A model generated the notes under the pieces. The model was not told the origin of the DNA, ran no database searches, and saw only the letters and a list, made by a program, of their open reading frames with translations. From an uncultured delta proteobacterium (GTDB taxonomy: Bacteria; Desulfobacterota; RBG-13-43-22), in the NCBI GenBank assembly GCA_963711835.1, contig CAVQFQ010000017.1:576001-640000 (forward strand): a stretch of 64,000 nt of DNA, written 5' to 3'. A program made the position numbers and the translations under genes. This document shows, piece after piece, positions 13,452 through 28,521 of this stretch (position 1 is the first letter of the stretch; the number at the start of each line of letters is the position of its first letter).

Positions 13452-14797
13452 ATGATGCCGGCCTTGAATATCATGGTAGTGGATGATGAAGTCAACATCC
13501 GTAAGACCTTATCGGTTTGCCTGGAGACCGAAGGGCACAAGGTTATTGGAGTCAGCAATTTTCAGGATGCCCTGACGGAGAGCTGCACGCCGGTCTTTTG
13601 ATCTGGCCTTTGTCGATCTGCGTCTCGGCACCGAGGACGGCCTGGATCTGATTCCGGCCTTACTGGCTCACATCGCCCTGGCTCAAGATTATCGTCATCA
13701 CGGCCTATGCCTCCATTGATACGGCCGTGGAGGCCATGCGACGTGGCGCCACGGACTATATTCCCAAACCTTTCACCCCTACCCAGGTCAAGCTGACCGT
13801 CCAGAAAATGTTCCATATGCGCACCCTGGAGCAGAAGGTTGCCGCTTTGCAGGAAGACTTGGGACGGTCATATCCCGAGATAGAATTTGCCAGTACCAGC
13901 CCGGTCATGCAACGGGCGGTCAATCTGGCCCGGCAGGCTGCCCCATCCGAGGCCACGATTCTTCTTCGTGGAGAAAGTGGAACCGGCAAGACCGTCCTGG
14001 CCAAGGCCATTCACTCCTGGAGCAAGCGGGCGGCCAAACCCCTCGGCATCATTTCCTGTCCCTCTTTTTCCGCGGAATTGCTGGAAAGCGAACTTTTCGG
14101 GCATGTCAAGGGGGCCTTTACCGGGGCCGTTCGCGACAACCCGGGCCGGGTGGCCGCCTGCGAGGGCGGCACACTTTTTCTCGACGAGATCGGGGATTTG
14201 CCCCTGTCCCTTCAACCTAAATTGCTGCGTTTTATCCAGGAAAGGGAATATGAACGGGTCGGCGACTCTATCACTCGGAAAGCCGACGTTCGTCTGATTA
14301 CAGCCACCAACTTGGGATTTGGAAAAGGCGGTGCAAGGAAGGACGATTTCGAGAAGATCTCTTTTTTCGACTCAATGTAATTCAGATCGAAATCCCCCCC
14401 TTGCGCGAACGTCCGGATGATGTGATTGCACTTGCCGAACAATTACTGATTTTCTATGGCCGGAGCAATCATCAGGCCTTTATTGGTTTTACTCCGGAAG
14501 CCTCCAGGCCCTCAGACAATACCCCTGGCCGGGCAATGTCCGGGAATTAAGCAATGTCATCGAGCGGGCGGCCATTTTTTGCCGAACCGATCGTGTCGGT
14601 ATCGAGTGTCTTCCCTGCAAATCTCTACCCCAATGAATCCCTGCCCAACTATCGGTGATCCGGTCACCCTGGAAAAAATCGAAGAACAACACATCCGAAG
14701 AATTCTGGCCACCACCAGATCACTACAAGAAGCGGCCGACATCCTGGGTATCGATCAGGCTACCCTCTGGCGCCGCCGTAAAAAGTACGGGATCTGA
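13452..14797 (+). CDS. Sigma54-dependent response regulator (REC-AAA+-Fis HTH, AlgB/NtrC-like); several frameshifts
   Basis: Starts [20 protein letters not shown]. Contains [34 protein letters not shown] (in a shifted frame) and C-terminal [25 protein letters not shown]. Confidence 0.9.
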
Positions 14798-14801
14798 AGG
14801 T

Positions 14802-15581
14802 CTATTCAAGAATGAAACAATTTAATATATTAGCCGCTTTTTTTATAGCCCGTTTTCCCTTCAAGAGAAAGACAAAGGCCGCTACCATCGAATGAAGAGA
14901 GACCAAGGTGTAGCCCGTTGGAAGGTCGAATTGATAGGAAATGACGACCCCCAGAAGATTAATCAAGGTCCCATAGATCCAGGCAAATAAGAGATTGAAA
15001 CGGCTGACCATCATCAAAGAGACCAGGGCCGGGGCGACCAGAAGAGAAAAAACCACCAAGACGCCGGCCAGCTTTACCGAACTGGTTACCGTTACGGCAA
15101 AAAGCAAAAAAAAGCTAATGTCCTTTAGGCGATTTTTAAAAAATTTTCCGGTCAGGTAGAGGGCGATCCCTATCAAAAAGTAAATTCCGGTAGTGGTGTA
15201 AATGTCTTTCAGAGAGACAAAAAGCAAATCGCTGGCCAGCAGCCGTTGAAAATCTTCCGTTCCATGAGGAGATTTGGAGAGGATCAGAAACACGGTGGCA
15301 ATTCCAAAGGCATAGATCAGACCGATGAAGGCCTCGGAAAGCCTTTCGACCTTGGAAGCTACGGCTATGACAAAGGCCCCTAAAAAGGCAAAGAGCAGGG
15401 AGATCGGGTAATGAAATTCTCCTTCAAAAAAGAACAAAGAAACGGCGGCCCCCAGGGCGGCCATTTGCCCAATGGCCAGATCGGTAAAGATAATACCTCT
15501 CTTCAGAATCTCCATACCGAAGAAGGAATGGATGCCCACTAAAACGACTGAAAGAAGAAAAGCGGTCAGCAGTATATCCAT
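14802..15581 (-). CDS. Metal (Zn/Mn) ABC transporter permease, ZnuB-like
   Basis: RGIIFTDLAIGQMAALGAA and SSVKLAGVLVVFSLLVAPA motifs; hydrophobic. Confidence 0.85.
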   Translation of the reverse strand: MDILLTAFLLSVVLVGIHSFFGMEILKRGIIFTDLAIGQMAALGAAVSLFFFEGEFHYPISLLFAFLGAFVIAVASKVERLSEAFIGLIYAFGIATVFLILSKSPHGTEDFQRLLASDLLFVSLKDIYTTTGIYFLIGIALYLTGKFFKNRLKDISFFLLFAVTVTSSVKLAGVLVVFSLLVAPALVSLMMVSRFNLLFAWIYGTLINLLGVVISYQFDLPTGYTLVSLHSMVAAFVFLLKGKRAIKKAANILNCFILE

Positions 15582-16477
15582 TATTGAGACAACCTCCGGA
15601 CTATTTCTTCAAAAAGGGAAAATAAATCCTTGGCCTCCGGGACCGCACCTATATCATGGGGAAGAAGGATATATTTAGCGCCCGTCTTTTCAGCCACGAA
15701 CTGGGCGCTCCTCTTTTCATGATAGACATCTTGCAGGATAAAATCCACTTTCTGCGATTTGGCCGTTTCTATCAGTTCCTCTATATGTCTTGCCGTCGGA
15801 GGAATCCCCGGTTTCGGCTCGATCGTCCCGGCCAGGGACAAATGGTAGGCTGAAAGGAAATAGTTAAAGAGCTGTGATATTGAATAACCTTTTTCCCTTT
15901 AACGACGGAAAGCTTATGATCCCATTCCCGTATTTTTCTCATCCCAATGTTTCAGGAACTCGACAATCTTATTTTCATAATGCCGGCAGTTGATTAGCGT
16001 CCAGACCGCACAGCTTATCTTTTATGGCCCTGGCCAGAATCGGGAATGTTATGGGGGTCAAGAGCGAAGTGGGGATTTCCTTCGGGATGAATGTCTCCCT
16101 CGGATCGGGAAACACTGGTGGGCACTTCGATGAGATTGACGTGTTGCGAGAGGTCTAAAAATCCCTTTGAGGTTTGGATCCTGGGATTATTGGCCTGCTG
16201 TAATGAGGATCGGTATAAATCCGATTTCCAGACCGGCCCCATTAATAATGACCAGGTCCGCTCCTCGAAGTTTGGCAATAAAAGAAGGTTTGGGAACAAT
16301 AAAATGGGGATCTTCCGTCCCTTTGCCCAGGACAAAGACTTCCACCTTATCCCCTCCTATCTTCTGGGTGAGGTCTCCTATGTAAGGATAGGTGACCACC
16401 ACTTTTATTTGGCCATAGGAGAAGGTGGTAAACGATAAACTCAATATCAAGCCAAGGAAAATTATAAATTTTTTCAT
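15581..16477 (-). CDS. Metal ABC transporter substrate-binding protein, ZnuA-like (multiple frameshifts)
   Basis: Fragments in different frames: signal peptide + EDPHF.VPKPS...NGAGLEIG; GDIHPEGNPHFALDP; IEPKPGIPPTARH. Confidence 0.82.
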
Positions 16478-16489
16478 CTTCGTCCTCCA

Positions 16490-17987
16490 TTAATAAGCAT
16501 GGGCGCCGTGGGCCCCGATTGCCATTTGAAATTGTAGAAAAACCCCGGTAACCGGCTCCCGATTGGTTCCGTTAAAGAGCGAGTTGTCCTGGTTGAGTTG
16601 AAGTCTCAGGAGTGAGAATTCCGAGGGTTTAAATTCCAGCATGGCCGAAATTCTATCCAGGCCGCCGGGTAGACCTTGTTTTATGCCATCATTATAAACA
16701 TCATTTTGATTCAAAAGATCATACCTGACGCCGGTCCGCCACCTCTGTGCAAATCGATAGACCAATTGGGAATAAAAGCCCGATTGCTTTAGTTCCTTTC
16801 CAAAGATATTCAAGGATTGATTGGGATCGTCCGGGGCCGGGTCTGTCCCGACGTTTAAATTCATATACCGGTACATAAACTCGCTTTGCCAGGATACATA
16901 GCGGTAGGAATCGATAAAATATTTGGCCGTTAAGTCCAGGCCGTAAATTCTTGTATCTCCATAGGCCATCTGGGATTGGAATCATTAGTAAGGTTCTGCC
17001 TGGTCTGCCCTTGGGCATAGGACAATCCCCCCAAAAGCGAAAGACTGCCGATATCAAAAGAAGACTTGATATAGGACACCAAGAGGTTGGGTTGCTGGGC
17101 TCCGTCTTTGGCAAAGACGAGGCCATTTTTTTCCAAGCGGACGCATTGGTCCCGAAGCTGCCCGTCATTTTCTCCTTGCAGGATCTTCGGCCCCTAATAA
17201 AAGGTAAAAGGGGGTGGGGGCCAGCCAATTGATTTGAACCCCCTTTTCAACCAGCCCGTCCTCCCCAAAGAAGGCCCGATTCACCAGGGGGGCATCGGCA
17301 AAGTCCCAAACATGCTCGTGTTGAACATTCAATCTCCCGAAAGAAGACCTGAATTTACCTCCCTTGACCTGAAAACCCCAAGGCAAGGACTTTGGTTCTA
17401 AAATAGGCCTCTTCAAGTTCAACACCGCTCTCGGTAAAAGGGAATGGTGGCGGACAAATCAAAATAGGGATCAACCGGGGAATAAAGGGACAGTTCTCCA
17501 AAGTTGAGATTAAAGCCCCTATTCGGATTCGATATTCCGGAAGGGATCAATTCCGGGACCCTGAGATTTCTTAAGGTTTCATCATTTATATTTCGGCCCA
17601 CATAAGAGCCATCCACAATAAAAGAAATATCCGGAACGAATTTGCTCTGTGAAAAAGAATAGACTTCCAGAGGTTTGGGCATTTCAGAAAATTTTTTATC
17701 AATCGGGCTGGTCGGGTAAGCCATCCCCAATTCTTTGGCTTTTTATTGGTCCAACCATTTCCTTGGGGGTCGCCTGGGTCACTACGGGCTTGACCTCCTG
17801 GGCAACCTGAGTCCCTTTGGATTGCCCCTTCAAGTCATCGATCTCCTGTTGCTGCTTTTCAATGGTCTTTTGCTGATTTTGTAATAATCTCTTCCAAGGC
17901 CTTAAGCCTTGCTTCTATATCCGAGCCAAAGGATTGGTGTTGCCAGAACAAAGGGGAAAAAAGAACAAGGATCAGTATCCTTTTCAT
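16490..17987 (-). CDS. Zinc-regulated outer-membrane receptor/porin (multiple frameshifts)
   Basis: ATG at 17987 with GGAGG SD and signal peptide plus coiled coil; fragments PDISFIVDG, VDPYFD, FRSSFGRLN.QH.H.WDFADAP; C-terminus IGAHGAHAY. Confidence 0.8.
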
Positions 17988-18061
17988 GAACACCTCCATA
18001 AAGAATATCCTCGGAAAAGGAATAGACCTATCTTGTCAAAGGTCAACGATTCGAGAAGATC

Positions 18062-18424
18062 TTAGGAATGGACAAGAGGCGTTAAATGGAAGGAGGTGCT
18101 CGGGGGACTGTGAGATCTATAAAAAGATTTGGAGATTGGAATTGTCGTTTCAGGATTATTAAAATCAATACCCTGAAAAAGGGATTGAATAAGGCCGGCG
18201 TTATTATTAACTAAAAAAGGCAGGTTAACGGATAGACAAATCGGACAATCGGAATGGGAAGAGGAATCGTTATGGTGATGGTAGGGTAGGGTCAGGATGG
18301 AAATTAAGAAGAGAAGGGCCAGACCACAAGACCCGTTCCTGACCAATCGGATTGTTTTTGGAGAAAAGGTAATCACAGGTAACCTGCTTAATATAATCAA
18401 ATCTACTGATTTTTTATATAGCAT
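18062..18424 (-). CDS. DUF2946-like small His-rich CxxC protein (probable leader peptide; likely true stop at 18082)
   Basis: Hydrophobic segment followed by YHHHNDSSSHSDCPIC; a one-base shift gives the C-terminus IDLTVPRAPPSI*. Confidence 0.7.
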   Translation of the reverse strand: MLYKKSVDLIILSRLPVITFSPKTIRLVRNGSCGLALLFLISILTLPYHHHNDSSSHSDCPICLSVNLPFLVNNNAGLIQSLFQGIDFNNPETTIPISKSFYRSHSPPSTSFHLTPLVHS

Positions 18425-18699: not shown

Positions 18700-18715
18700 T
18701 GGCCCAGGGATTGCA
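18700..18715 (+). promoter_or_regulatory. Sigma54 (-24/-12) promoter of the kinase-kdp operon
   Basis: TGGCCCAGGGATTGCA fits GG-N10-GC and ends 27 nt before the kinase ATG; an AT-rich IHF-like tract (TACAACAAGTTA) lies upstream. Confidence 0.75.
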
Positions 18716-18742: not shown

Positions 18743-20589
18743 ATGTTAGGACTGCGCCAAAAAATATCACTCGGCTTCGGCGGGCTGCTGATCATTATTT
18801 TATTGATCGGAATCCAGAGTATCCTTCAACTCAGCCGACTGGGAGATTCCATCGATGTCATCCTGCGCGAAAATTACCGGAGTGTCATCGCCTGTCAGGA
18901 GATGAAAGAAGCCCTGGAACGTATTGACAGCGGAATCCTTTTTTCGCTTCAGGGATATACCCAAAAAGGCCATGAACAGATTCGTATCAATGAACAGGCC
19001 TTTGAAAAGGCCCTTCAGGTGGAATTGAACAATATCACCCTTCCCGGCGAAGGCGAAAAGGCCGCCTTGCTGCAAAAGAATTACAATCAATACAAAAGCG
19101 CCCTTAAGGATGTAGTGGGTAGTCCCCTTTCAATTAACCATCGTCGTCAGACTTATTTTAACGAACTCCTTCCCTTGTTCGACCGCATTAAAGGGACCGC
19201 CAACGAAATCCTTCAAATGAACCAGCAAAATATGCACGAAGCCAATGATCGGGCCCGCCGGAGTGCTGCTACGGCTAAGAGGGAGATGGTTTTTCTTTTA
19301 TTGGCGGGAATGATCATCGCCGTAGGATTTTTATTTTTTTTCGGGAAATGGGTCTTGCGGCCTATTAACCGCCTGATCCAATCTACCGATGAAATCCGAA
19401 AAGGAAACCTGGATCTGGTCGTCCAAAGCTCCTCCCGGGACGAGATCGGTCTTCTTTCCCAAGCCTTTAATGACATGGCCACAAGCCTCAGGGAGTTTCG
19501 CCGCTCGGATCAGGCCCATCTCATTCGGATCCAGCAGGCCACCCAACAGGCCTTCAACAGCCTGCCGGAGGCGATTGCGGTTATCGATCTGGAAGGCAAG
19601 GTGGAGGTGGCTACCGAAACAGCCAGGAATTCCTTTGGACTCCAGCCGAACATTTCCCTTAGCGCCTTGCCCTTTGGATGGATGGCGGAATTATACCAGG
19701 AGGCCATCAAGCAGGGCCGTACGGTGAATCTGAAAAACAGCCAAGGGGTCTTTCAGCATTTCATCCGGGGGGAAGAACGCTATTTTCATCCGGAGGCGGT
19801 TCCTATCCTCGACCGGGAGAGACAACCCGCCGGGGTGGTGATGGTCCTTCAGGATGTCACCCAGCTCCGGCAGCAGGATGAGATAAAAAGAGGGATGATA
19901 TCCACCGTATCCCATCAACTGAAAACACCTCTGACCTCCATACGTATGGCCATCCACCTCCTGTTGGAAGAAAAAGTCGGACACCTTACCGAAAAACAGG
20001 TCGAACTGCTTTTGGCGGCCCGGGAAGACAGCGATCGGCTTCACAATATCCTTAATAACCTGCTGGATATCAGCCGTATCGAATCAGGCAAGACCAAGAT
20101 GGAATTACAGCCTCGTTTCCCCGAATTCCATTGCAAATGGAAGCCCTGGAACCCTTTTGGAGGGCGGCCCACGACCAGGGGGTGACCCTGAATGTCGAGG
20201 TGCCGGGCGATTTGCCCGAGGTTTGGGCCGATCCGACCAGAATCTATTATGTCTTTGGCAATCTTCTTTCCAATGCCCTTAAATATACCCCAGCGGGCGG
20301 TAAGGTCACCGTATCCGCCAGGGCGGAAAAAAATGAGGTCCGTTTTTCCATCTCCGACACGGGAAGGGGGATTCCCGGTCAGTATCTCCCCAGGATCTTC
20401 GAACAATTCTTTCGGGTCCCGGACCAGGAAAAGGAATCGGGGGCCGGCCTCGGACTGGCCATTGTTAAAGAGATTATCGAAGCCCACGGTGGGACCGTCG
20501 GCGTAGAAAGTCAGGAAGGGAAAGGGAGCACTTTTATCTTTACCCTGAAAACAGTGGATCATCTATCGAAGCAGGAGGATCATTCATGA
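18743..20589 (+). CDS. Membrane sensor histidine kinase (periplasmic helical domain-HAMP-PAS-HisKA-HATPase, KinB-like); frameshift near 20110-20135
   Basis: Two TM helices, HAMP DEIGLLSQAFN.M, H-box VSHQLKTPLTS; N/G boxes NLLSNALKYT, DTGRGI and GAGLGL in ORF 20131-20589. Confidence 0.9.
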
Positions 20590-20669
20590 TCGACGCGGTT
20601 TATATTTTAATTTCAATCGGTTTTTTCGGCTTGTGTGTCCTGTACATGCGGGCCTGTGAAAGGCTTTAA
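20586..20669 (+). CDS. 27-aa membrane peptide upstream of kdpF (KdpZ/KdpG-like)
   Basis: Absent from the ORF track: MIDAVYILISIGFFGLCVLYMRACERL*. ATGA overlap with the kinase stop; GGAGG SD. Confidence 0.75.
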   Translation: MIDAVYILISIGFFGLCVLYMRACERL

Positions 20670-20670
20670 C

Positions 20671-20754
20671 ATGTCGGATATTATTGGATTGATTATCGGG
20701 CTGATCCTGATCGTTTATCTTTTTATAACCGTTCTGCGGCCTGAAAAGTTTTGA
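20671..20754 (+). CDS. kdpF: K+-transporting ATPase subunit F
   Basis: Absent from the ORF track: MSDIIGLIIGLILIVYLFITVLRPEKF*, with the YL...L.PEKF signature. Confidence 0.93.
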   Translation: MSDIIGLIIGLILIVYLFITVLRPEKF

Positions 20755-20769
20755 TGAAGGGATAAGATC

Positions 20770-22572
20770 ATGGACCTTTACGGATGGATTCAACTCACAC
20801 TCTATATGCTCGTTCTTCTGGCACTGACCAAACCCATGGGACTTTATCTGGTTCAGGTTCTGGATGCCGAAGGCAAGACCTTTCTGGATCCGGTTCTACG
20901 ACCTTTAGAACGGGTTTTGTACCGGTTCTTTGGTTTGGACCCAAAAAAGGAGCAGGACTGGAAAGGCTATACCTTTTCTTTGCTCCTGTTCAGCCTGGTC
21001 GGGTTGTTGTTTACCTATGTAATCCTTCGACTCCAGCATCTACTGCCCCTCAACCCCCAAGGCTTCGGGCCGGTTCCCGCCGACCTGGCCTTCAATACGG
21101 CGGCCAGTTTCACCACCAACACCAATTGGCAGAATTACGGCGGTGAATCAACCCTCTCCTATTTTTCCCAGATGGTGGGTCTTGTTTTTCATAACTTCGC
21201 CTCAGCCGCCGTGGGCCTGGCCGCAGCCGCGGCCCTGGTACGCGGCATTGCCCGACATTCGGCCAAAACGATCGGCAACTTCTGGGTCGATTTGATCCGG
21301 GGGAACCTTTATCTGCTGCTGCCGATCAGCCTGGTACTGGCCGTCTTCCTGGTCTCACAGGGCATGATCCAGAACTTTAAGGCCTATGATTCGGCCAGGG
21401 TCATCGAACCCATAACCATCCAGGTCCCTAAAAAGGACGCCGGCGGTCAGGAGATCAAGGATGCCCAGGGCAACCCGGTGCTGATCGATCAGAAGGTCGA
21501 GCAACAGACCCTTCCCCAGGGGCCGGTAGCCTCACAGGTGGCCATCAAGATGCTGGGGACCAACGGCGGTGGTTTTTTCAACGCCAATGCCGCCCATCCT
21601 TATGAAAACCCGACTCCCTTATCCAATTTTTTTCAGATGCTGGCCATCTTTCTCATCCCCAGCGGCCTGACCTATTATCTGGGCCGCATGGTCAAAAATC
21701 AAAGGCATGGCTGGGCCATCTGGAGCGCCATGACCATCCTCTTTCTCAGTGCCGTCCTGATCTGCTGGTGGGCGGAATCGGCCGGCAATCCACGTCTCCA
21801 GGCCCTTGGCCTGGACCCGGTAAGCGGAAACATGGAAGGGAAAGAGGTCCGTTTCGGGATCTTCAACTCGGCCCTTTTTGCCACCATCACCACCGGTGCC
21901 TCCTGCGGGGCCGTCAATGCCATGCATGACTCCTTTACCCCCCTCGGAGGTTTGATCCCTCTGTTCAACATCCAATTGGGCGAGGTCGTTTTCGGAGGAG
22001 TAGGTGCCGGGTTGTACGGGATGCTGATCTTCGTTATTTTGGCCGTATTCCTGACCGGCTTGATGGTCGGCCGCACCCCCGAGTATCTCGGCAAAAAAAT
22101 AGAACCCTATGATGTAAAAGTAAGCGTTCTGGCCCTGATGATCTTGATCTTCAGCATCCTGGGCTTCTCGGCCTGGGCCCTGGTCAGCCAATGGGGCTTG
22201 GCCGGCTTGAACAATGGCGGCCCCCACGGTTTGAGCGAGATACTCTATGCCTTTTCATCGGCCACCGGCAATAACGGCAGCGCCTTCGCCGGACTGAGCG
22301 GTAATACGGCCGGGTACAACACCACCCTGGGACTGGCCATGCTGTTCGGACGTTTTATTATGATCGTGCCGGTGATGGCCCTGGCCGGGAGTCTGGCCGG
22401 GAAAAAACTCGTTCCCTCCTCCGGAGGAAGCTTTCCGGTCTGGGGTTTGACCTTTACCCTCGTCCTGGTGGGGACGGTCGTAATCGTCGGGGCCTTGACC
22501 TTTCTTCCGGCCCTGGCCTTGGGTCCGATCGTCGAACATTTTTTGATGACCGGATCAAAAATTCTCTTTTAA
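20770..22572 (+). CDS. kdpA: K+-transporting ATPase subunit A
   Basis: [27 protein letters not shown] and NNGSAFAG motifs. Confidence 0.97.
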
Positions 22573-22585
22573 GGGGCCCAGGCTC

Positions 22586-24607
22586 ATGGTAACTAAAACA
22601 CATTCCCTCTTTGAACGGGCCATCATCGGACAGGCGGCCATCGATTCGTTTAAAAAACTCAATCCGGTTTCGTTGTTGAAAAATCCGGTTATCTTTGTAA
22701 CCGAAGTCGGGGCGGCCTTGACCACGGTCGGTCTTTTTTGGAGTTCCGGGAAGGATCCCTTCGGGTTTATCTTGCAAGTCAGCCTTTGGCTCTGGTTTAC
22801 CGTCCTCTTTGCCAACTTCGCCGAGGCCATGGCCGAAGGAAGGGGCAAGGCCCAGGCCAAGGCCCTGCGGAAGACCCGAACCCAGACCCTATCCAATCGG
22901 CTGAAATCCGATGGATCGGTGGAGCGGATCGAAGCCGACCGATTGCGAAAGGACGACCTGGTCCTGGTGTCGGCCGGAGAGATCATCCCCTCGGACGGTG
23001 AGATCATCGCCGGGGTGGCCACGGTGGACGAATCGGCCATTACCGGCGAATCGGCCCCGGTTATCCGCGAGGCCGGCGGCGATCGGAGTGCCGTCACCGG
23101 CGGCACCAGGGTTCTATCGGACCAGATCAAGATCCTTATAACCGCCAACCCGGGGGAAAGTTTTCTGGATCGTATGATCCAGCTTGTTGAAGGGGCCCAG
23201 CGCCAGAAAACCCCCAACGAGATCGCCCTGACGATCCTCCTTTCGGCCCTGACCATCATCTTTTTGATGGTCTGCATCACCCTGAAGCCCTTCGGTCTTT
23301 ACTCGGGTGTGGCCTTTTCGATGACCGTTTTGGTGGCCTTGCTGGTTTGTCTGATCCCGACCACGATTGGCGGTCTTCTGAGCGCTATCGGGATCGCCGG
23401 GATCGACCGTATGGTCCAAAAAAACGTCCTGGCCATGAGCGGCCGGGCCGTCGAAGCCGCCGGGGATATCGACGTGTTGCTCCTGGATAAAACGGGGACC
23501 ATCACTTTGGGGGACCGTCAGGCCAGCGCCTTTTTTCCGGCCCCTGGGGTCCGAATCGAGGAACTGGCCGATGCGGCCCAATTAGCCTCACTGGCCGACG
23601 AAACACCCGAAGGCCGTAGCATCGTTGTGCTGGCTAAAAAATATGGTTTACGAGGGCGTTCCATCTCGGAAATGTCCGAGGCCCGATTTATCAGCTTTTC
23701 CGCCCAGACCAGAATGAGCGGCGTGGACGTGGGGGGACGGCAGATCCGCAAGGGGGCCATAGACGCCGTCAAGGCCTTCACCGGGAAGGATCTTCCCCTG
23801 GAAGTTCAAGACGCCGTGGACTCCATTTCCCTTTCCGGCGGGACGCCTCTTCTGGTCGTTGACAAAGAAAAGGTCCTGGGGGCCATCCATCTGAAGGATA
23901 TTGTCAAAGGCGGGCTGAAAGATCGTTTTGAACGATTTCGGGTCATGGGGATCAAGACCATCATGGTTACCGGAGACAACCCTCTGACGGCTGCGGCCAT
24001 TGCCCGGGAGGCGGGTGTGGATGATTTTATTGCCGAGGCCAAGCCGGAGGATAAGCTGGCCCTGATTCGCAAAGAACAGGCGGCAGGTCACTTAGTGGCC
24101 ATGACCGGAGACGGCACCAACGACGCCCCGGCCCTGGCCCAGGCCGATGTCGGGGTGGCCATGAACACAGGGACCCAGGCAGCCAAGGAGGCCGGCAATA
24201 TGGTGGATCTGGATTCCAACCCGACGAAATTGATCGAGGTCGTTGAAATAGGCAAACAACTGCTCATCACCCGAGGGGCCTTGACCACCTTTAGTATCGC
24301 CAACGATGTGGCCAAATACTTTGCCATCATCCCGGCCATGCTGATGAGTGTCTTCCCGGTTATTGCCCCCCTTAACATTATGGGCCTTCAGTCCCCCCAA
24401 AGCGCCATTCTGAGTGCCGTTATTTTCAATGCCCTGATCATTATTACCCTCATCCCTTTGGCCTTGCGGGGGGTGCGTTTCCGTCCGGTAGGGGCGGCCG
24501 TACTGCTCAAACGCAACCTGTTAATATACGGCCTGGGCGGTCTCATAGCTCCCTTTCCGGGCATTAAACTGATCGATTTGATCATCAATGCCTTGCATAT
24601 CGTATGA
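22586..24607 (+). CDS. kdpB: K+-transporting P-type ATPase subunit B
   Basis: ITGES, DKTGT and [11 protein letters not shown] motifs. Confidence 0.97.
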
Positions 24608-24713: not shown

Positions 24714-25298
24714 ATGAAAAATATCTTTGCCGAATTACGTATCGCCTTGCTGGCCACATTATCCCTGGCAGTGATTCTCTGTGGTTTTTACCCCCTGGTG
24801 GTCTGGGCTCTTTCCCAGGGATTATTCCCGGATAAGGCCAATGGTTCATTGGTCAAGGAAAAGCAGATGATCAGGGGATCGAGTCTTATCGCCCAGGGGT
24901 TTGGCGATCGGAAATACTTTCATCCCCGTCCCTCAGCCGCCGGGCAAGGCTATGACGGCCTCAGTTCCTCAGGCAGCAACCTCGGACCTCTTTCCAAGAA
25001 ACTGAACGATACCCTTAAAGAACGCCTGGACCGATATCGTGCTGAAAACAGACTTCCTCCGGATGTCTTGCTCCCGGCCGATGCCGTGACCGCCTCGGCC
25101 GGCGGTCTGGATCCGCACATTAGTTTGAAAAATGCCTTGTTGCAGGCCTCGCGTGTTGCCGAAGCCCGAGGTGTGGGAGATAAAACCGTTTTAAAACAGA
25201 TTGAACTTTACACCGAGGGCCGGGACTTGGGAATCTTCGGTGAACCCAGAGTAAATGTACTGATGTTGAATCTGGCCCTGGATCGCCTGGCCAAGTGA
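24714..25298 (+). CDS. kdpC: K+-transporting ATPase subunit C
   Basis: YFHPRPSA, SNLGP, ASAGGLDPHIS and VNVLMLNLALD motifs. Confidence 0.96.
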   Translation: MKNIFAELRIALLATLSLAVILCGFYPLVVWALSQGLFPDKANGSLVKEKQMIRGSSLIAQGFGDRKYFHPRPSAAGQGYDGLSSSGSNLGPLSKKLNDTLKERLDRYRAENRLPPDVLLPADAVTASAGGLDPHISLKNALLQASRVAEARGVGDKTVLKQIELYTEGRDLGIFGEPRVNVLMLNLALDRLAK

Positions 25299-25343: not shown

Positions 25344-26603
25344 ATGCGGAGAGTGATGACCGACTTAATAAAACCCCGGACAGAAAGGCTCGTGGTGTGC
25401 ATAGGAACAAGTCCTTCTAATAAGAATCTGGTAGAAGCCGCCAAGGAAATGGCCAGGCAGTTCAATGCCCAATGGTTTGCTTTACACGTTGAGGATCCTA
25501 AAAGTCTGATGATGTCAGAGACCGGTCAGCAAGCAGCCGTCGAGAGTCTGCGCTTGGCGGAGCAATTGGGGGCCGAGACCTTCACCTTGGCCGGACGCAA
25601 TATAGCCGAAGAAATTCTCACCTTCGCCAGACAAAGGAACATCGCAAAAATAATCGTTGGCAAACCGAGGCATTCCCTCTGGAGATCCATTTTCTTAAGG
25701 AACCCGGTGGATCAACTGGTACGCCTGAGCGGAGAGATTGATGTTTACGCCCTAACGGGTGAGAAGAAAGAACACAGAGATGAGCCTTATACCATTCACC
25801 CACAAAAGATCCGATTGTCCGACTATGGAGCGGGCCTCTTGCTTTTTATATTGGCTACCTTGCTCTGTTTTTTGATGTATCCTTACTTTCACCTCAGTAA
25901 TCTGATTATGGTCTATTTGCTGGGCGTGATGATAACGGCCACTTCCTGCGGCAGGGGTCCGGCTATCCTTGGTTCTTTCTTAAGCGTTCTGGCTTTTGAT
26001 TTCTTTTTTGTCCCTCCCCGTTTTTCAATCACGGTGGAAGAGGCTCAGTACATCGTCACCTTCATAGTGATGTTTCTGGTTGCTTTGGTCATCAGTCACT
26101 TGGCTAATCGGTTGCGGCAACAAGTCGAAGTTGCCCGTTACCAAGAGCGGCAGGCCTCCGCCATGCATGGCCTCAGCCGGCAACTCGCAAGCACGAGAGG
26201 AATGGAAAAAATTTTCCAGGTGGCCGTACAATATATTTCTGAGATTTTTGATTGCCAGTGTATAGCTATGGTGCCGAACAGTCAGGTTAGGTTTAATGTG
26301 ATCGCCGGTGATCCCTCTTCAGTTTTCCATCATGATGTTGTCAAAGAAATTCAAATCGCCCACACAGCTTTCAACACCGGGCAGATGGCCGGATTGGGCA
26401 CACAAACCTCGCAGGCAAGCGAGAATCTCTATGTGCCGATTCGAGCAGGCGATTTCACGTTAGGCGTTTTAGTCTTGCGGCCAGCAGACCGTGATCGGTT
26501 CCGGCACCCTGAACAAATATATCTTTTGGAATCACTGGTCAAACAAATTGCTTTGGCCTTAGAGGTAGAGCACTTGGCTGGAAGTGAGAAATCCAAAGTT
26601 TAA
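25344..26603 (+). CDS. KdpD-like membrane protein: USP + DUF4118 4-TM + GAF, no kinase domain
   Basis: USP (VVCIG...LAEQLGAE...IIVGKP), TM motif AFDFFFVPPRFS and a GAF-like region; ends with a clean stop after IALALE. Confidence 0.88.
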   Translation: MRRVMTDLIKPRTERLVVCIGTSPSNKNLVEAAKEMARQFNAQWFALHVEDPKSLMMSETGQQAAVESLRLAEQLGAETFTLAGRNIAEEILTFARQRNIAKIIVGKPRHSLWRSIFLRNPVDQLVRLSGEIDVYALTGEKKEHRDEPYTIHPQKIRLSDYGAGLLLFILATLLCFLMYPYFHLSNLIMVYLLGVMITATSCGRGPAILGSFLSVLAFDFFFVPPRFSITVEEAQYIVTFIVMFLVALVISHLANRLRQQVEVARYQERQASAMHGLSRQLASTRGMEKIFQVAVQYISEIFDCQCIAMVPNSQVRFNVIAGDPSSVFHHDVVKEIQIAHTAFNTGQMAGLGTQTSQASENLYVPIRAGDFTLGVLVLRPADRDRFRHPEQIYLLESLVKQIALALEVEHLAGSEKSKV

Positions 26604-26730
26604 GGTCGAGTTTAGAGGGAAAACCAGATCAGGTCTACCCTAAACCGTTAAAGTCACTCGAACCTTATTTTCATATTAAACCCTCATGCCCGCCTGCAGC
26701 GGGCGCCACGAAAGATGAGAATATTTAGTT

Positions 26731-26817
26731 CCCCCTCACCCCAACCCTCTCCCGCCAGGGGAGAGGAGGTCAGATTAACTGCCTCCCCCTTGATAGGGGA
26801 GGATAGAGGTGGGGGTG
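26731..26817. repeat. REP-like paired palindromes (CCCTCACCCCAACCCTCTCCC...GGGAGAGG class)
   Basis: Hairpins CCTCTCCC-gccag-GGGAGAGG and CCTCCCC-cttgata-GGGGAGG with complementary outer flanks. Confidence 0.75.
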
Positions 26818-26844: not shown

Positions 26845-28521
26845 ATGAGCGACGACAGAGCCAATGCTTTTCTAAGAATGATCCGTCACGCCCAGCGGGG
26901 CCGGTTGAAGGTCTATCTGGGCTATTGCCCGGGGGTGGGGAAAACCTATCAGATGTTACAGGAAGGTCTCCGGCTTAAAAACGATGGGATCGACGTCGCT
27001 ATCGGGCTCGTTGAAACCCACGGCCGGGCCGATATCGCCAGACTGGCTGGAGGGCTGGAGGTCATCCCCCGGCGCCGGCAGGAATACCGCGGCGTTCCCG
27101 TGGAAGAGATGGATGTGGAGGCCATCCAGGCGCGCAAACCCCAAGTAGCCCTCATTGACGAACTGGCCCATACCAATGTCCCCGGCAGTCCGAACCAAAA
27201 ACGCTATCAGGACGTTCAGGATATCCTGGCAGCAGGGATCCATGTCATCACCACCTTGAATATTCAGCATTTGGAAAGCCTCTACAATATGGTCGAAAAG
27301 GCCGTGGGGGTCAAGGTCCGGGAGCGTCTTCCCGATTCGGTCCTGGCCGAAGCCGACCAGATCGTAGATGTGGATTTATCCACCGAAGACTTACAAAAAC
27401 GACTAGAAGAAGGGAAGATCTACCCTCGGGAGCGTATCCAGACCGCCCTTTCCAATTTCTTCCGGACTTCCAATTTGGAAAAGCTTCGGGAATTGACCCT
27501 TCGGGAACTCGCCTCTCAGATTGATTTAAGGAGACGGGAAACGGGGAGAAAAGAAAGCGATATCACCGCGGACCAGGTGATGGTTTGCCTGAGCTCGCGG
27601 GGCCCCAACAGTGATAAACTGTTGCGTTATGCCTCACGGCTGGCCGGAAAACTGAACCGAAACTGGTATGCCGTATATGTTCAAACCCCTTCCGAGGAGA
27701 CCACGGTCATCGATGCCCGCACCCAGCGTCTGCTCTCCGACACCTTGACCTTGGCCAAACAATTAGGGGCCCTGGTGTTTACCTACAAGGGAGAGGATAT
27801 TGTGGATACTATCCTGAGATTTGCCAAGGAATATCGGGTGGGGCATATCATTATCGGACGACCGGGTTCTAAACCTTTCTTTAAAAGATTTGGGAAGAAT
27901 AGGGATATTGTTGGGGACCTGATCAAAAATGCCGTTGGGGTCACTGTCATTGTTTCGGATACCCGTGAAGAAGAACCGCGGATGGCCGTGGCCCGGAAAG
28001 TGGTCACTGAAACACCTCCCGCGGGTGCCCTTCTTTCAGAACCCACGCCCCCTTCGCCGGATCAATTGATGCTGAGCCAACTGATCACCCCTCAACGGAT
28101 TATCATTTGGGACCGGCCGGCCATCAAAGAGGTCATCCTTCAACAATTGGTGGAAGCCGCGGCGAAATCCGACCGGATAGGCGATCCGGAGGCCTTATTA
28201 AAAGAGGTCCTCAAGCGGGAAGAACAGGGATCGACCTTTTTTAACGAGGGGGTAGCCTTCCCCCACGCCCGGATCAACGACCTGACGGCCCCCATAGTGG
28301 CTCTGGGATTAACCGGAAAGGGGGTCTCCGATGTCCTTACCGAGAAGCCCATTGAGATAGTTTTTCTGATCCTTTCTCCGGCTCAAACCCCGGACATCCA
28401 GGTCAAGGTGTTAGGTCTGACCAGCCGGGCAGCCCAAAACAGGCAGCTTCTGCAAAGCCTCAAATCCGCCCAAACCCCCGAAGAGGTGCTATCAGCCATC
28501 CACAATTGGGAAAGGCCCTAA
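26845..28521 (+). CDS. Soluble KdpD N-terminal domain + USP + PTS EIIA-type-2 domain fusion
   Basis: RGRLKVYLGYCPGVGKTYQML, ETHGR, DELAHTN, TTLNIQHLESL and a USP domain; C-terminal REEQGST.F..GVAFPHAR. Probable start MSDDRA at 26845. Confidence 0.9.
   Translation: MSDDRANAFLRMIRHAQRGRLKVYLGYCPGVGKTYQMLQEGLRLKNDGIDVAIGLVETHGRADIARLAGGLEVIPRRRQEYRGVPVEEMDVEAIQARKPQVALIDELAHTNVPGSPNQKRYQDVQDILAAGIHVITTLNIQHLESLYNMVEKAVGVKVRERLPDSVLAEADQIVDVDLSTEDLQKRLEEGKIYPRERIQTALSNFFRTSNLEKLRELTLRELASQIDLRRRETGRKESDITADQVMVCLSSRGPNSDKLLRYASRLAGKLNRNWYAVYVQTPSEETTVIDARTQRLLSDTLTLAKQLGALVFTYKGEDIVDTILRFAKEYRVGHIIIGRPGSKPFFKRFGKNRDIVGDLIKNAVGVTVIVSDTREEEPRMAVARKVVTETPPAGALLSEPTPPSPDQLMLSQLITPQRIIIWDRPAIKEVILQQLVEAAAKSDRIGDPEALLKEVLKREEQGSTFFNEGVAFPHARINDLTAPIVALGLTGKGVSDVLTEKPIEIVFLILSPAQTPDIQVKVLGLTSRAAQNRQLLQSLKSAQTPEEVLSAIHNWERP

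What the first reader, a model, noticed from the sequence alone, without database searches (positions are those of the whole stretch)
26845..28521. KdpD sensor domain fused to a PTS EIIA domain: Rosetta-stone link between PTS(Ntr) and Kdp
Seen: KdpD domain with Walker A (GYCPGVGKT), USP, a Pro-rich linker (TETPPAGALLSEPTPPSP), then an EIIA-2 domain retaining RE..GST and the phospho-acceptor motif GVAFPHAR. Known: free EIIA(Ntr)/PtsN binds the KdpD kinase core and stimulates kdp expression in E. coli and rhizobia. Inference: the EIIA domain tethers the soluble sensor to the separate kinase, gated by PTS phosphorylation. I do not recall this architecture being characterised.
Basis: partly seen in the sequence, partly recalled or inferred. 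Interest (0 to 1): 0.75.

Follow-up and report, generated by a model that had tools for sequence, protein, structure and literature searches.

The report
Potassium-pump kinase with PTS switch
The last gene of a potassium-pump operon joins the front half of KdpD, likely the enzyme that switches the pump off, to a phosphotransferase (EIIA) domain that would let the cell's metabolic phospho-relay tune that shut-off; the fusion is real and conserved, and I found no paper describing it.

Summary
Observation confirmed. Window 26845-28521 encodes KdpD + USP + unconserved linker + PTS_EIIA_2, in frame in 75 of 80 related loci, so not a misassembly. It ends a sigma54-type operon (kinase, kdpFABC, USP-TM-GAF, fusion) laid out like the known Desulfovibrio DVU3334-3339 system. 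EIIA keeps the phospho-His (52 of 52), is under purifying selection, and HPr is present in 50 of 50 fusion genomes tested, though not found in this 89%-complete assembly. An obligatory tether is unlikely: a nested lineage lost EIIA but kept the kinase (17 of 19 loci). The domain forms its own lineage, not PtsN. Best reading: an optional PTS input on the pump-off kinase (0.4); rival: a captive PtsN-like activator of the separate kinase (0.27). Binding could not be modelled (tool unavailable). No paper on the fusion found; this scan noted it before on other genomes. New variant of a known kind, interest 0.5.

The parts
26845..28521 (+). Fusion gene, 558 aa: KdpD (serine-kinase) domain + USP + linker + EIIA-2; only KdpD-domain gene found in the assembly
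26893..27522 (+). KdpD domain (residues 17-226): Walker A G26-X5-G32K33T34, Walker B D105/E106, adenine pair Y35/R186
   Evidence: dN/dS 0.05-0.09
27571..27960 (+). USP domain (about 243-372) with the E. coli-type motif R261-X3-R265-X8-W274YAVY278
27970..28062 (+). Unconserved linker, predicted disordered (376-406)
28084..28506 (+). PTS EIIA-2 domain (414-554); R458 and H474 (28264-28266) match E. coli PtsN R57 and H73; Q519 replaces H120
   Evidence: dN/dS 0.11-0.25
25344..26603 (+). USP-DUF4118 (4 TM)-GAF protein, 419 aa: the middle of a KdpD with neither serine-kinase nor histidine-kinase domain; in 7 of 80 related loci
24714..25298 (+). kdpC
22586..24607 (+). kdpB, with TGES motif: E155/S156 match E. 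coli E161/S162 (S156 at 23051-23053)
20770..22572 (+). kdpA
20671..20754 (+). 27-aa hydrophobic peptide ending RPEKF, likely kdpF (name from recall of the KdpF ending, not scanned)
20586..20669 (+). Second 27-aa hydrophobic peptide before kdpF, role unknown
18743..20589 (+). Separate histidine kinase 4HB-HAMP-PAS-HisKA-HATPase (two frames here; one frame in relatives)
18700..18714 (+). Sigma54 -24/-12 promoter-like site 43 nt before the kinase start; the same pattern lies upstream of the kinase in 29 of 54 loci (0.39 expected)
13452..14797 (+). Sigma54-dependent response regulator (AAA + HTH by Pfam; several single-base indels against L065), separated from the kinase by an ABC-transporter block

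Best explanation
The protein is a soluble KdpD-USP-EIIA fusion at the end of a kdpFABC operon; its KdpD domain likely phosphorylates KdpB Ser156 to shut the potassium pump off, and its EIIA domain would take a phosphate on His474 from the host's EI/HPr relay and so likely tune that kinase within the same chain. Shown here: the domains, the kept catalytic residues, the target serine, the kept His/Arg, selection on the domain, a sigma54-type site upstream of the operon, and one gain and at least one loss of EIIA. [quoted passage not shown] EIIA is an optional metabolic input, not a structural requirement.
For: G32/K33/T34, D105/E106 and R186 map onto E. coli G36/K37/T38, D109/E110 and R190 and are invariant in 52 of 52 aligned fusions; these are the residues whose mutation abolishes KdpB phosphorylation, and a short KdpD-USP chain is active alone (PMC11018627). 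kdpB lies in 53 of 53 loci with at least 8 kb upstream and the TGES site was found in 62 of 67 kdpB matches examined. H474 is kept in 52 of 52 fusions and in 100 of 100 single-domain profile hits of 108 bits or more; R458 in 49 of 52; EIIA dN/dS 0.11-0.25 in six pairs. HPr in 50 of 50 fusion genomes; HPr and EI in 20 of 20 genomes of the window's family. The chain has no TM or GAF K+ sensor and lacks the described c-di-AMP motif, leaving room for another input. The EIIA lineage was seen only attached to KdpD-USP among long hits scanned in its own tree branch, and no form above 977 aa was found (weak evidence).
Against: The monomer model shows no fixed packing of EIIA on the kinase (pTM 0.40, linker disordered). 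HPr and EI were not found in the window's own assembly (89% complete); its only PEP-utiliser match reads as pyruvate phosphate dikinase (name from my reading of the sequence). HPr is common anyway (17 of 20 other-family genomes; 5 of 5 EIIA-less genomes), so co-occurrence discriminates little. The second active-site His of PtsN is Gln in 48 of 52 and GIG is FFN. EIIA-less relatives have the same USP motif, so they manage without this input. A diadenylate cyclase is present in 50 of 50 fusion genomes, so c-di-AMP control through a different site is possible. The short KdpD stays beside the kinase when the pump genes lie elsewhere, which favours a kinase-directed role.
Confidence: 0.4

Rival explanations
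1. Captive activator: the KdpD-USP part associates with the separate histidine kinase and delivers the attached EIIA, whose unphosphorylated form stimulates the kinase and so sigma54 transcription of kdp, as free PtsN does for E. coli KdpD and PhoR.
For: Kinase near the fusion in 52 of 53 long loci and directly upstream of it in 12 of 80. Regulator-kinase-short KdpD stay together while kdpAB lie elsewhere in 3 of 3 well-assembled genomes, and no kdpA or kdpB was found in 2 of 2 MAGs with regulator, kinase and fusion. PtsN binds the DHp of KdpD and also PhoR (review passages), and this kinase scores best with PnpS/WalK/PhoR-type models.
Against: Kinase DHp identity to the window is only modestly lower in the EIIA-less lineage (66% against 76%), while the large change is in the periplasmic domain (33% against 59%) (one lineage). 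Hosts keep a free PtsN that could do this job. Adjacency after relocation of the intervening pump genes can be passive.
Confidence: 0.27
2. The EIIA fold is used as a ligand- or protein-binding module outside the PTS relay (as EIIA-like domains on ion transporters may be), with His474 kept for binding a phosphate-bearing metabolite or for structure.
For: Own lineage, 28% identical to the host PtsN; family-specific W422, FFNEG and Q519; EIIA-2 domains also occur on cation/proton antiporters and CNNM-CBS proteins among the profile hits; EI and HPr not found in this assembly.
Against: His474 and Pro473 are invariant even in distant members (100 of 100); HPr in 50 of 50 fusion genomes; per domain, antiporter EIIAs score no higher (at most 80 bits) than the host PtsN (79.9).
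Confidence: 0.18
3. EIIA docks the soluble kinase on a membrane partner, either KdpFABC itself or the GAF domain of the neighbouring USP-TM-GAF protein, in a phosphorylation-dependent way.
For: S. fredii PtsN1 binds the KdpD GAF domain; a GAF gene lies directly upstream here and is kept at about 420 aa in 5 of 6 relatives checked.
Against: That gene is present in only 7 of 80 loci; the isolated E. coli KdpD domain reaches KdpB without help.
Confidence: 0.1
4. As first written: EIIA is the tether needed to hold the soluble KdpD sensor on the separate kinase.
For: Fusion and kinase co-occur; in one genome (G119) the kinase has decayed and EIIA is absent.
Against: EIIA is absent with kinase and regulator in place in 17 of 19 loci of G119's own clade (the other 2 are cut by contig ends), with no separate copy of the domain in 5 of 5 genomes checked; D. 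vulgaris DVU3336 is described with only the K+ sensor and UspA domains.
Confidence: 0.05

Closest known systems
Desulfovibrio vulgaris Hildenborough DVU3334-DVU3339 kdp operon (Rajeev et al. 2011, PMC3333781; passages read)
   Same: Response regulator controlling its own kdpFABC operon; kinase function split into a KdpD+UspA ORF and a separate histidine-kinase ORF.
   Different: DVU3336 is described with KdpD and UspA domains only; here EIIA is added, and a USP-TM-GAF gene lies between kdpC and the fusion. I did not compare the DVU sequences themselves.
Short KdpD/Usp atypical serine kinase (Deinococcus geothermalis Q1J2K3) and the E. coli KdpD N-terminal domain (Silberberg et al. 2024, PMC11018627)
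   Same: Walker A/B and adenine-site residues, KdpB TGES target, place downstream of the pump genes, diadenylate cyclase in the genome.
   Different: Extra EIIA domain; Tyr for Trp39; E. coli-type USP motif. The paper's main text and searched supplements do not contain EIIA, PTS or PtsN; its table lists 551-585-aa members of this clade (Desulfomonile tiedjei I4C4T7, Syntrophus gentianae A0A1H7VNX2, Syntrophorhabdus aromaticivorans A0A971M6F5, Desulfobacterium sp. E1YG16) simply as 'KdpD domain, Usp domain' (their C-termini were cut from my view).
Free EIIA-Ntr (PtsN) acting on full-length KdpD in E. coli (review PMC8534201, passages) and Sinorhizobium fredii (PMC9239096, abstract and passages)
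   Same: EIIA-2 fold with the phospho-His linked to Kdp control.
   Different: There EIIA is a free protein acting in trans on a one-chain kinase with KdpE and transcription as output; here it is covalently attached to a chain with no histidine kinase, is not the host's PtsN, and the regulator is sigma54-type.
NCBIfam NF038185 KdpD_non_kinase
   Same: Best family model for residues 7-340 (E 3.7e-106).
   Different: 355.5 bits, below the 550 cut-off; the model has no EIIA.

Membership tests
KdpD atypical serine kinase | Walker A G-X5-GKT | tested here: met
   G26,G32,K33,T34 match E. coli G30,G36,K37,T38; 52 of 52
KdpD atypical serine kinase | Walker B Asp-Glu (D109/E110) | tested here: met
   D105/E106, 52 of 52
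KdpD atypical serine kinase | Adenine pair W39/R190 | tested here: inconclusive
   R186 52 of 52; position 35 is Tyr in 45, Trp 4, Phe 2, His 1 of 52: aromatic but mostly not Trp
KdpD atypical serine kinase | Cognate KdpB with E161/S162 | tested here: met
   E155/S156 in the window's KdpB; TGES found in 62 of 67 kdpB matches
KdpD atypical serine kinase | ATP-dependent phosphorylation of KdpB | not testable with these tools
   needs an in vitro assay
c-di-AMP-binding KdpD USP (S. aureus type) | SXS-X20-FTAXY motif | tested here: not met
   has RXXXR-X8-WXAVY, the E. coli-type motif of PMC4686210
c-di-AMP-binding KdpD USP (S. aureus type) | Diadenylate cyclase in the genome | tested here: met
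   own genome; 50 of 50 fusion genomes
PTS EIIA-2 (Fru/Mtl/Ntr) domain | PF00359 above cut-off and EIIA fold | tested here: met
   71.3 bits against 27; TM 0.88 to 1A6J
PTS EIIA-2 (Fru/Mtl/Ntr) domain | Phospho-acceptor His and active-site Arg | tested here: met
   H474 52 of 52, R458 49 of 52
PTS EIIA-2 (Fru/Mtl/Ntr) domain | EI and HPr donors in the host | tested here: inconclusive
   not found in the 89%-complete own assembly; 20 of 20 family genomes have both; HPr in 50 of 50 fusion genomes
PTS EIIA-2 (Fru/Mtl/Ntr) domain | PEP-dependent His phosphorylation | not testable with these tools
   needs an in vitro assay
EIIA-Ntr (PtsN) orthologue | TIGR01419 above cut-off | tested here: not met
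   52.7 bits against 138.7; the host's free PtsN also misses it (102.4) but scores twice as high
EIIA-Ntr (PtsN) orthologue | Free protein in the rpoN-hpf-ptsN-rapZ operon; groups with PtsN | tested here: not met
   a separate ptsN holds that place; fused domains form a separate branch in a quick tree, support 83
EIIA-Ntr (PtsN) orthologue | Second His (E. coli H120; its active-site role is recalled, no paper found) | tested here: not met
   Gln in 48 of 52 close fusions; His in 47 and Gln in 34 of 100 wider hits
DVU3334-3339-type split kdp system | Sigma54-type regulator, separate kinase and short KdpD with kdpFABC | tested here: met
   (regulator within reach in 42 of 53 long loci)
DVU3334-3339-type split kdp system | Sigma54 promoter for the operon | tested here: met
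   pattern upstream of the kinase in 29 of 54 loci against 0.39 expected; 1 of 44, 1 of 77 and 1 of 43 upstream of kdpA, the fusion and the regulator
DVU3334-3339-type split kdp system | Regulator binds and activates its own operon | not testable with these tools
   shown for DVU3334 only
Canonical KdpD/KdpE | TM, GAF and histidine-kinase domains on the KdpD chain | tested here: not met
   absent; PRK10490 343 bits against 1123

The most novel reading that the evidence does not exclude
A bacterial protein serine kinase whose activity on a transporter is switched by a built-in PTS phospho-histidine domain: PEP-relay status directly gates the post-translational shut-off of KdpFABC, and the same chain may feed the separate sigma54 kinase, making one soluble protein a hub for both pump activity and pump expression across Desulfobacterota, Aminicenantes and other anaerobes.
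Probability: 0.35. Interest if true: 0.75.

Novelty: new variant of a known kind. Interest (0 to 1): 0.5.

Why it matters
PtsN control of Kdp is known only as a trans interaction affecting transcription in Proteobacteria, and how the newly found KdpD serine kinase is controlled in short forms is stated to be open (PMC11018627, Discussion). This fusion puts the two in one soluble chain that can be purified and assayed against E. coli KdpFABC, with natural EIIA-less relatives as controls. It is common in the phylum sample (22 of 53 KdpD matches in 52 of 301 genomes have fusion-length frames) and probably present in cultured species, yet is filed in databases as 'KdpD' or 'PTS IIA'.

Tried and rejected
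Monomer fold gave no domain packing (pTM 0.40). Idea that the domain came from antiporter EIIAs: the top non-KdpD profile hits were antiporters with two EIIA domains, but their scores are sums of two 36-80-bit domains and the tree does not join them to the fusion; rejected. Idea that EIIA is lost when the kinase decays (G119): rejected, since sister genomes lack EIIA with the kinase in place. Idea that EIIA loss follows PTS loss: rejected, HPr in 5 of 5. Search for forms above 977 aa found none among 675 candidates, weak evidence. Shorter hits look mostly like fragments on short contigs or frameshifted genes; not checked one by one. Plasmid search: no match above 60% identity among 477 records. 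The RNA run X20 held only short pieces of related sequence and shows nothing about expression. The careful tree did not finish; both trees are quick ones. Barabote and Saier's PTS survey was not held, and no paper on the second His was found. Motif searches in the Silberberg table for the EIIA motif are uninformative because cells are cut at 400 characters.

Full report
1. Observation. The stretch 26845-28521 (+) is one 558-aa frame. Pfam finds KdpD at 17-226, a sub-cut-off Usp at 244-344 and PTS_EIIA_2 at 414-554 (E 1e-19). The C-terminal part matches four solved PtsN sequences, and the predicted model matches 2R8R, 1A6J and 7JI4 with TM 0.87-0.91. It is the only KdpD-domain gene found in the assembly. 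The fusion recurs: the best 120 of 1344 protein hits; 75 of the best 80 of 239 GTDB loci in frame, 4 broken, 1 cut; contigs of two other runs span the linker. Loci are labelled Thermodesulfobacteriota, Aminicenantes, Myxococcota, Planctomycetota, Hydrogenedentota, Cloacimonadota, Riflebacteria and others.

2. Surroundings. In order: a sigma54-type response regulator (13452-14797), an ABC-transporter block on the other strand, a 4HB-HAMP-PAS-HisKA-HATPase kinase (18743-20589), two 27-aa peptides, kdpA, kdpB, kdpC, a USP-DUF4118-GAF gene and the fusion. The breaks in kinase and regulator are single-base indels against relative L065; the two in the kinase are also missing in contigs of other runs, so they are probably errors. 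Among 53 loci with at least 8 kb upstream, kdpB is in 53, the kinase in 52 (the last at my 45% threshold), the regulator in 42 and USP-TM-GAF in 6. A -24/-12 pattern lies at 18700-18714 and upstream of the kinase in 29 of 54 loci against 0.39 expected, but in only 1 of 44, 1 of 77 and 1 of 43 loci upstream of kdpA, the fusion and the regulator. I infer one sigma54 transcript from the kinase to the fusion.

3. The KdpD domain. Silberberg et al. 2024 (PMC11018627; parts 1-3 of 7, the first part of the Discussion, passages, and searches of the supplements) show that this domain phosphorylates KdpB S162 and that a short KdpD-USP chain does so alone. The required residues map to G32, K33, T34, D105, E106 and R186 here, with Tyr35 for Trp39, invariant in 52 of 52 aligned fusions except position 35. 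The window's KdpB keeps E155/S156; TGES was found in 62 of 67 kdpB matches, with no motif read in 5. The USP carries RXXXR-X8-WXAVY, the E. coli-type motif, not the S. aureus c-di-AMP motif (PMC4686210, passages), although a diadenylate cyclase is in this genome and in 50 of 50 fusion genomes.

4. The EIIA domain. R458 and H474 match PtsN R57 and H73; H120 is Q519 and GIG is FFN. H474 is kept in 52 of 52 fusions and 100 of 100 single-domain profile hits of at least 108 bits; position 519 is Gln in 48 of 52 close members but His in 47 of the 100 wider hits; dN/dS is 0.11-0.25 against 0.05-0.09 for KdpD and USP. The domain is 28% identical to the host's free PtsN, which sits in the rpoN-hpf-ptsN-rapZ operon. 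In a quick tree of 59 domains the 23 KdpD-fused ones fall on one branch (support 83, with one small protein), apart from PtsN and antiporter domains. EI and HPr were not found in this assembly (89% complete), against 20 of 20 genomes of its family and HPr in 50 of 50 fusion genomes, 50 of the 80 loci having been given; an assembly gap is the likelier cause. HPr is also in 17 of 20 other-family genomes, so this is consistent, not discriminating.

5. Is EIIA the tether? In 301 genomes of the phylum, 52 have a KdpD-USP match; 22 of the 53 matches have frames of 556-594 aa at 67% identity or more (EIIA checked directly in three outside the family). Short forms without EIIA lie beside the homologous kinase in 6 of 7 distant loci fetched. 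One family holds a clade 65-70% identical to this protein with frames of 378-425 aa: EIIA is absent in 19 of 19 loci fetched, with kinase and regulator in place in 17 and the other 2 cut by contig ends. Five such genomes keep HPr and have a single EIIA-2 gene each. A quick tree of 62 KdpD-USP sequences puts all 40 fusions in one branch (support 100) with these 11 short forms nested inside (support 100): one gain and one loss is the simplest reading. The published table also lists short members of this clade, such as S. fumaroxidans A0LLJ3. EIIA is therefore dispensable for pairing with the kinase. On the other side, the short KdpD stays with regulator and kinase when kdpAB lie elsewhere (3 of 3 well-assembled genomes) or are not found (2 of 2 MAGs), and directly follows the kinase in 12 of 80 loci, so a kinase-directed role of the chain is plausible. 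The EIIA-less lineage shows its largest kinase change in the periplasmic domain, not the DHp (one lineage). The monomer model shows no packing of EIIA.

6. Mechanism. Most likely (0.4): the operon makes pump and shut-off kinase together; the EIIA domain is phosphorylated by EI/HPr and tunes the attached serine kinase, unphosphorylated EIIA keeping the pump on. Rivals: captive activator of the separate kinase (0.27), non-PTS binding module (0.18), docking on the pump or GAF partner (0.1), obligatory tether (0.05). None of the activities or interactions is shown.

7. What is known. The layout matches D. vulgaris DVU3334-3339 (PMC3333781, passages). PtsN binds the DHp of E. coli KdpD and PhoR (review PMC8534201, passages; the primary papers were not read) and the GAF of S. 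fredii KdpD (PMC9239096, abstract and passages). Searches for the fusion gave only listings without it: KdpD+EIIA+fused (15 papers, two of whose kind I opened only PMC9239096), EIIA domain+antiporter+fused+PTS (none), KdpD+PtsN+domain architecture, kdpFABC+sigma54+KdpD+Usp domain+Geobacter, KdpD+PTS_EIIA_2 (1 unrelated by title), short KdpD+phosphotransferase, KdpD+PtsN+Deltaproteobacteria (none). EIIA, PTS and PtsN do not occur in the Silberberg text or searched supplements, whose table holds 551-585-aa members labelled 'KdpD domain, Usp domain'; the table was cut when stored and cells are cut at 400 characters, so their C-termini were not seen. Subscription journals are mostly outside the library. 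This scan recorded the same fusion on other genomes at least four times, and a different KdpD-EIIA form once; these are unchecked notes, not support.

8. Verdict. Real, conserved, apparently undescribed domain combination built from known parts within a known operon type: new variant of a known kind. Interest 0.5; 0.75 if PTS gating of the serine kinase is shown.

Noticed in passing
window 25344-26603 (+): USP-4TM-GAF protein with no kinase domain of either kind, about 420 aa in 5 of 6 relatives checked; in L113 and L115 a 54%-identical region is followed by histidine-kinase matches, so it may be a shortened USP-TM-GAF-HK that could supply K+ sensing in trans.
   Followed up: partly
window 20586-20669 (+): A second 27-aa hydrophobic peptide directly before the likely kdpF, overlapping the kinase stop.
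   Followed up: no
window 14802-18424 (-): ABC-3 permease, ZnuA-type binding protein and further frames inserted between the response regulator and the kinase, which are neighbours in most relatives.
   Followed up: no
window 26729-26766: Short element between USP-TM-GAF and the fusion that draws many unrelated contigs with loose ends in all large runs: a repeated intergenic sequence.
   Followed up: no
L011, L073, L078, L080: Kinase + fusion precede kdpABC and a second KdpD gene (KdpD domain followed by USP-TM-GAF), so two likely serine-kinase chains flank one pump.
   Followed up: no
L092 (G119:C10:229000-246000): kdpABC and short KdpD intact while kinase and regulator are reduced to fragments in a 100%-complete genome; no close kinase copy found elsewhere.
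   Followed up: partly
proteins P0291, P0292, P0300, P0302, P0388: Cation/proton antiporters with two tandem EIIA-2 domains, and a CNNM-CBS-EIIA protein: further EIIA domains attached to ion-transport proteins.
   Followed up: partly
L107-L123: In the lineage without EIIA the kinase's periplasmic domain is far more diverged from the window's (33% against 59%) than its other parts, hinting at a changed input.
   Followed up: partly
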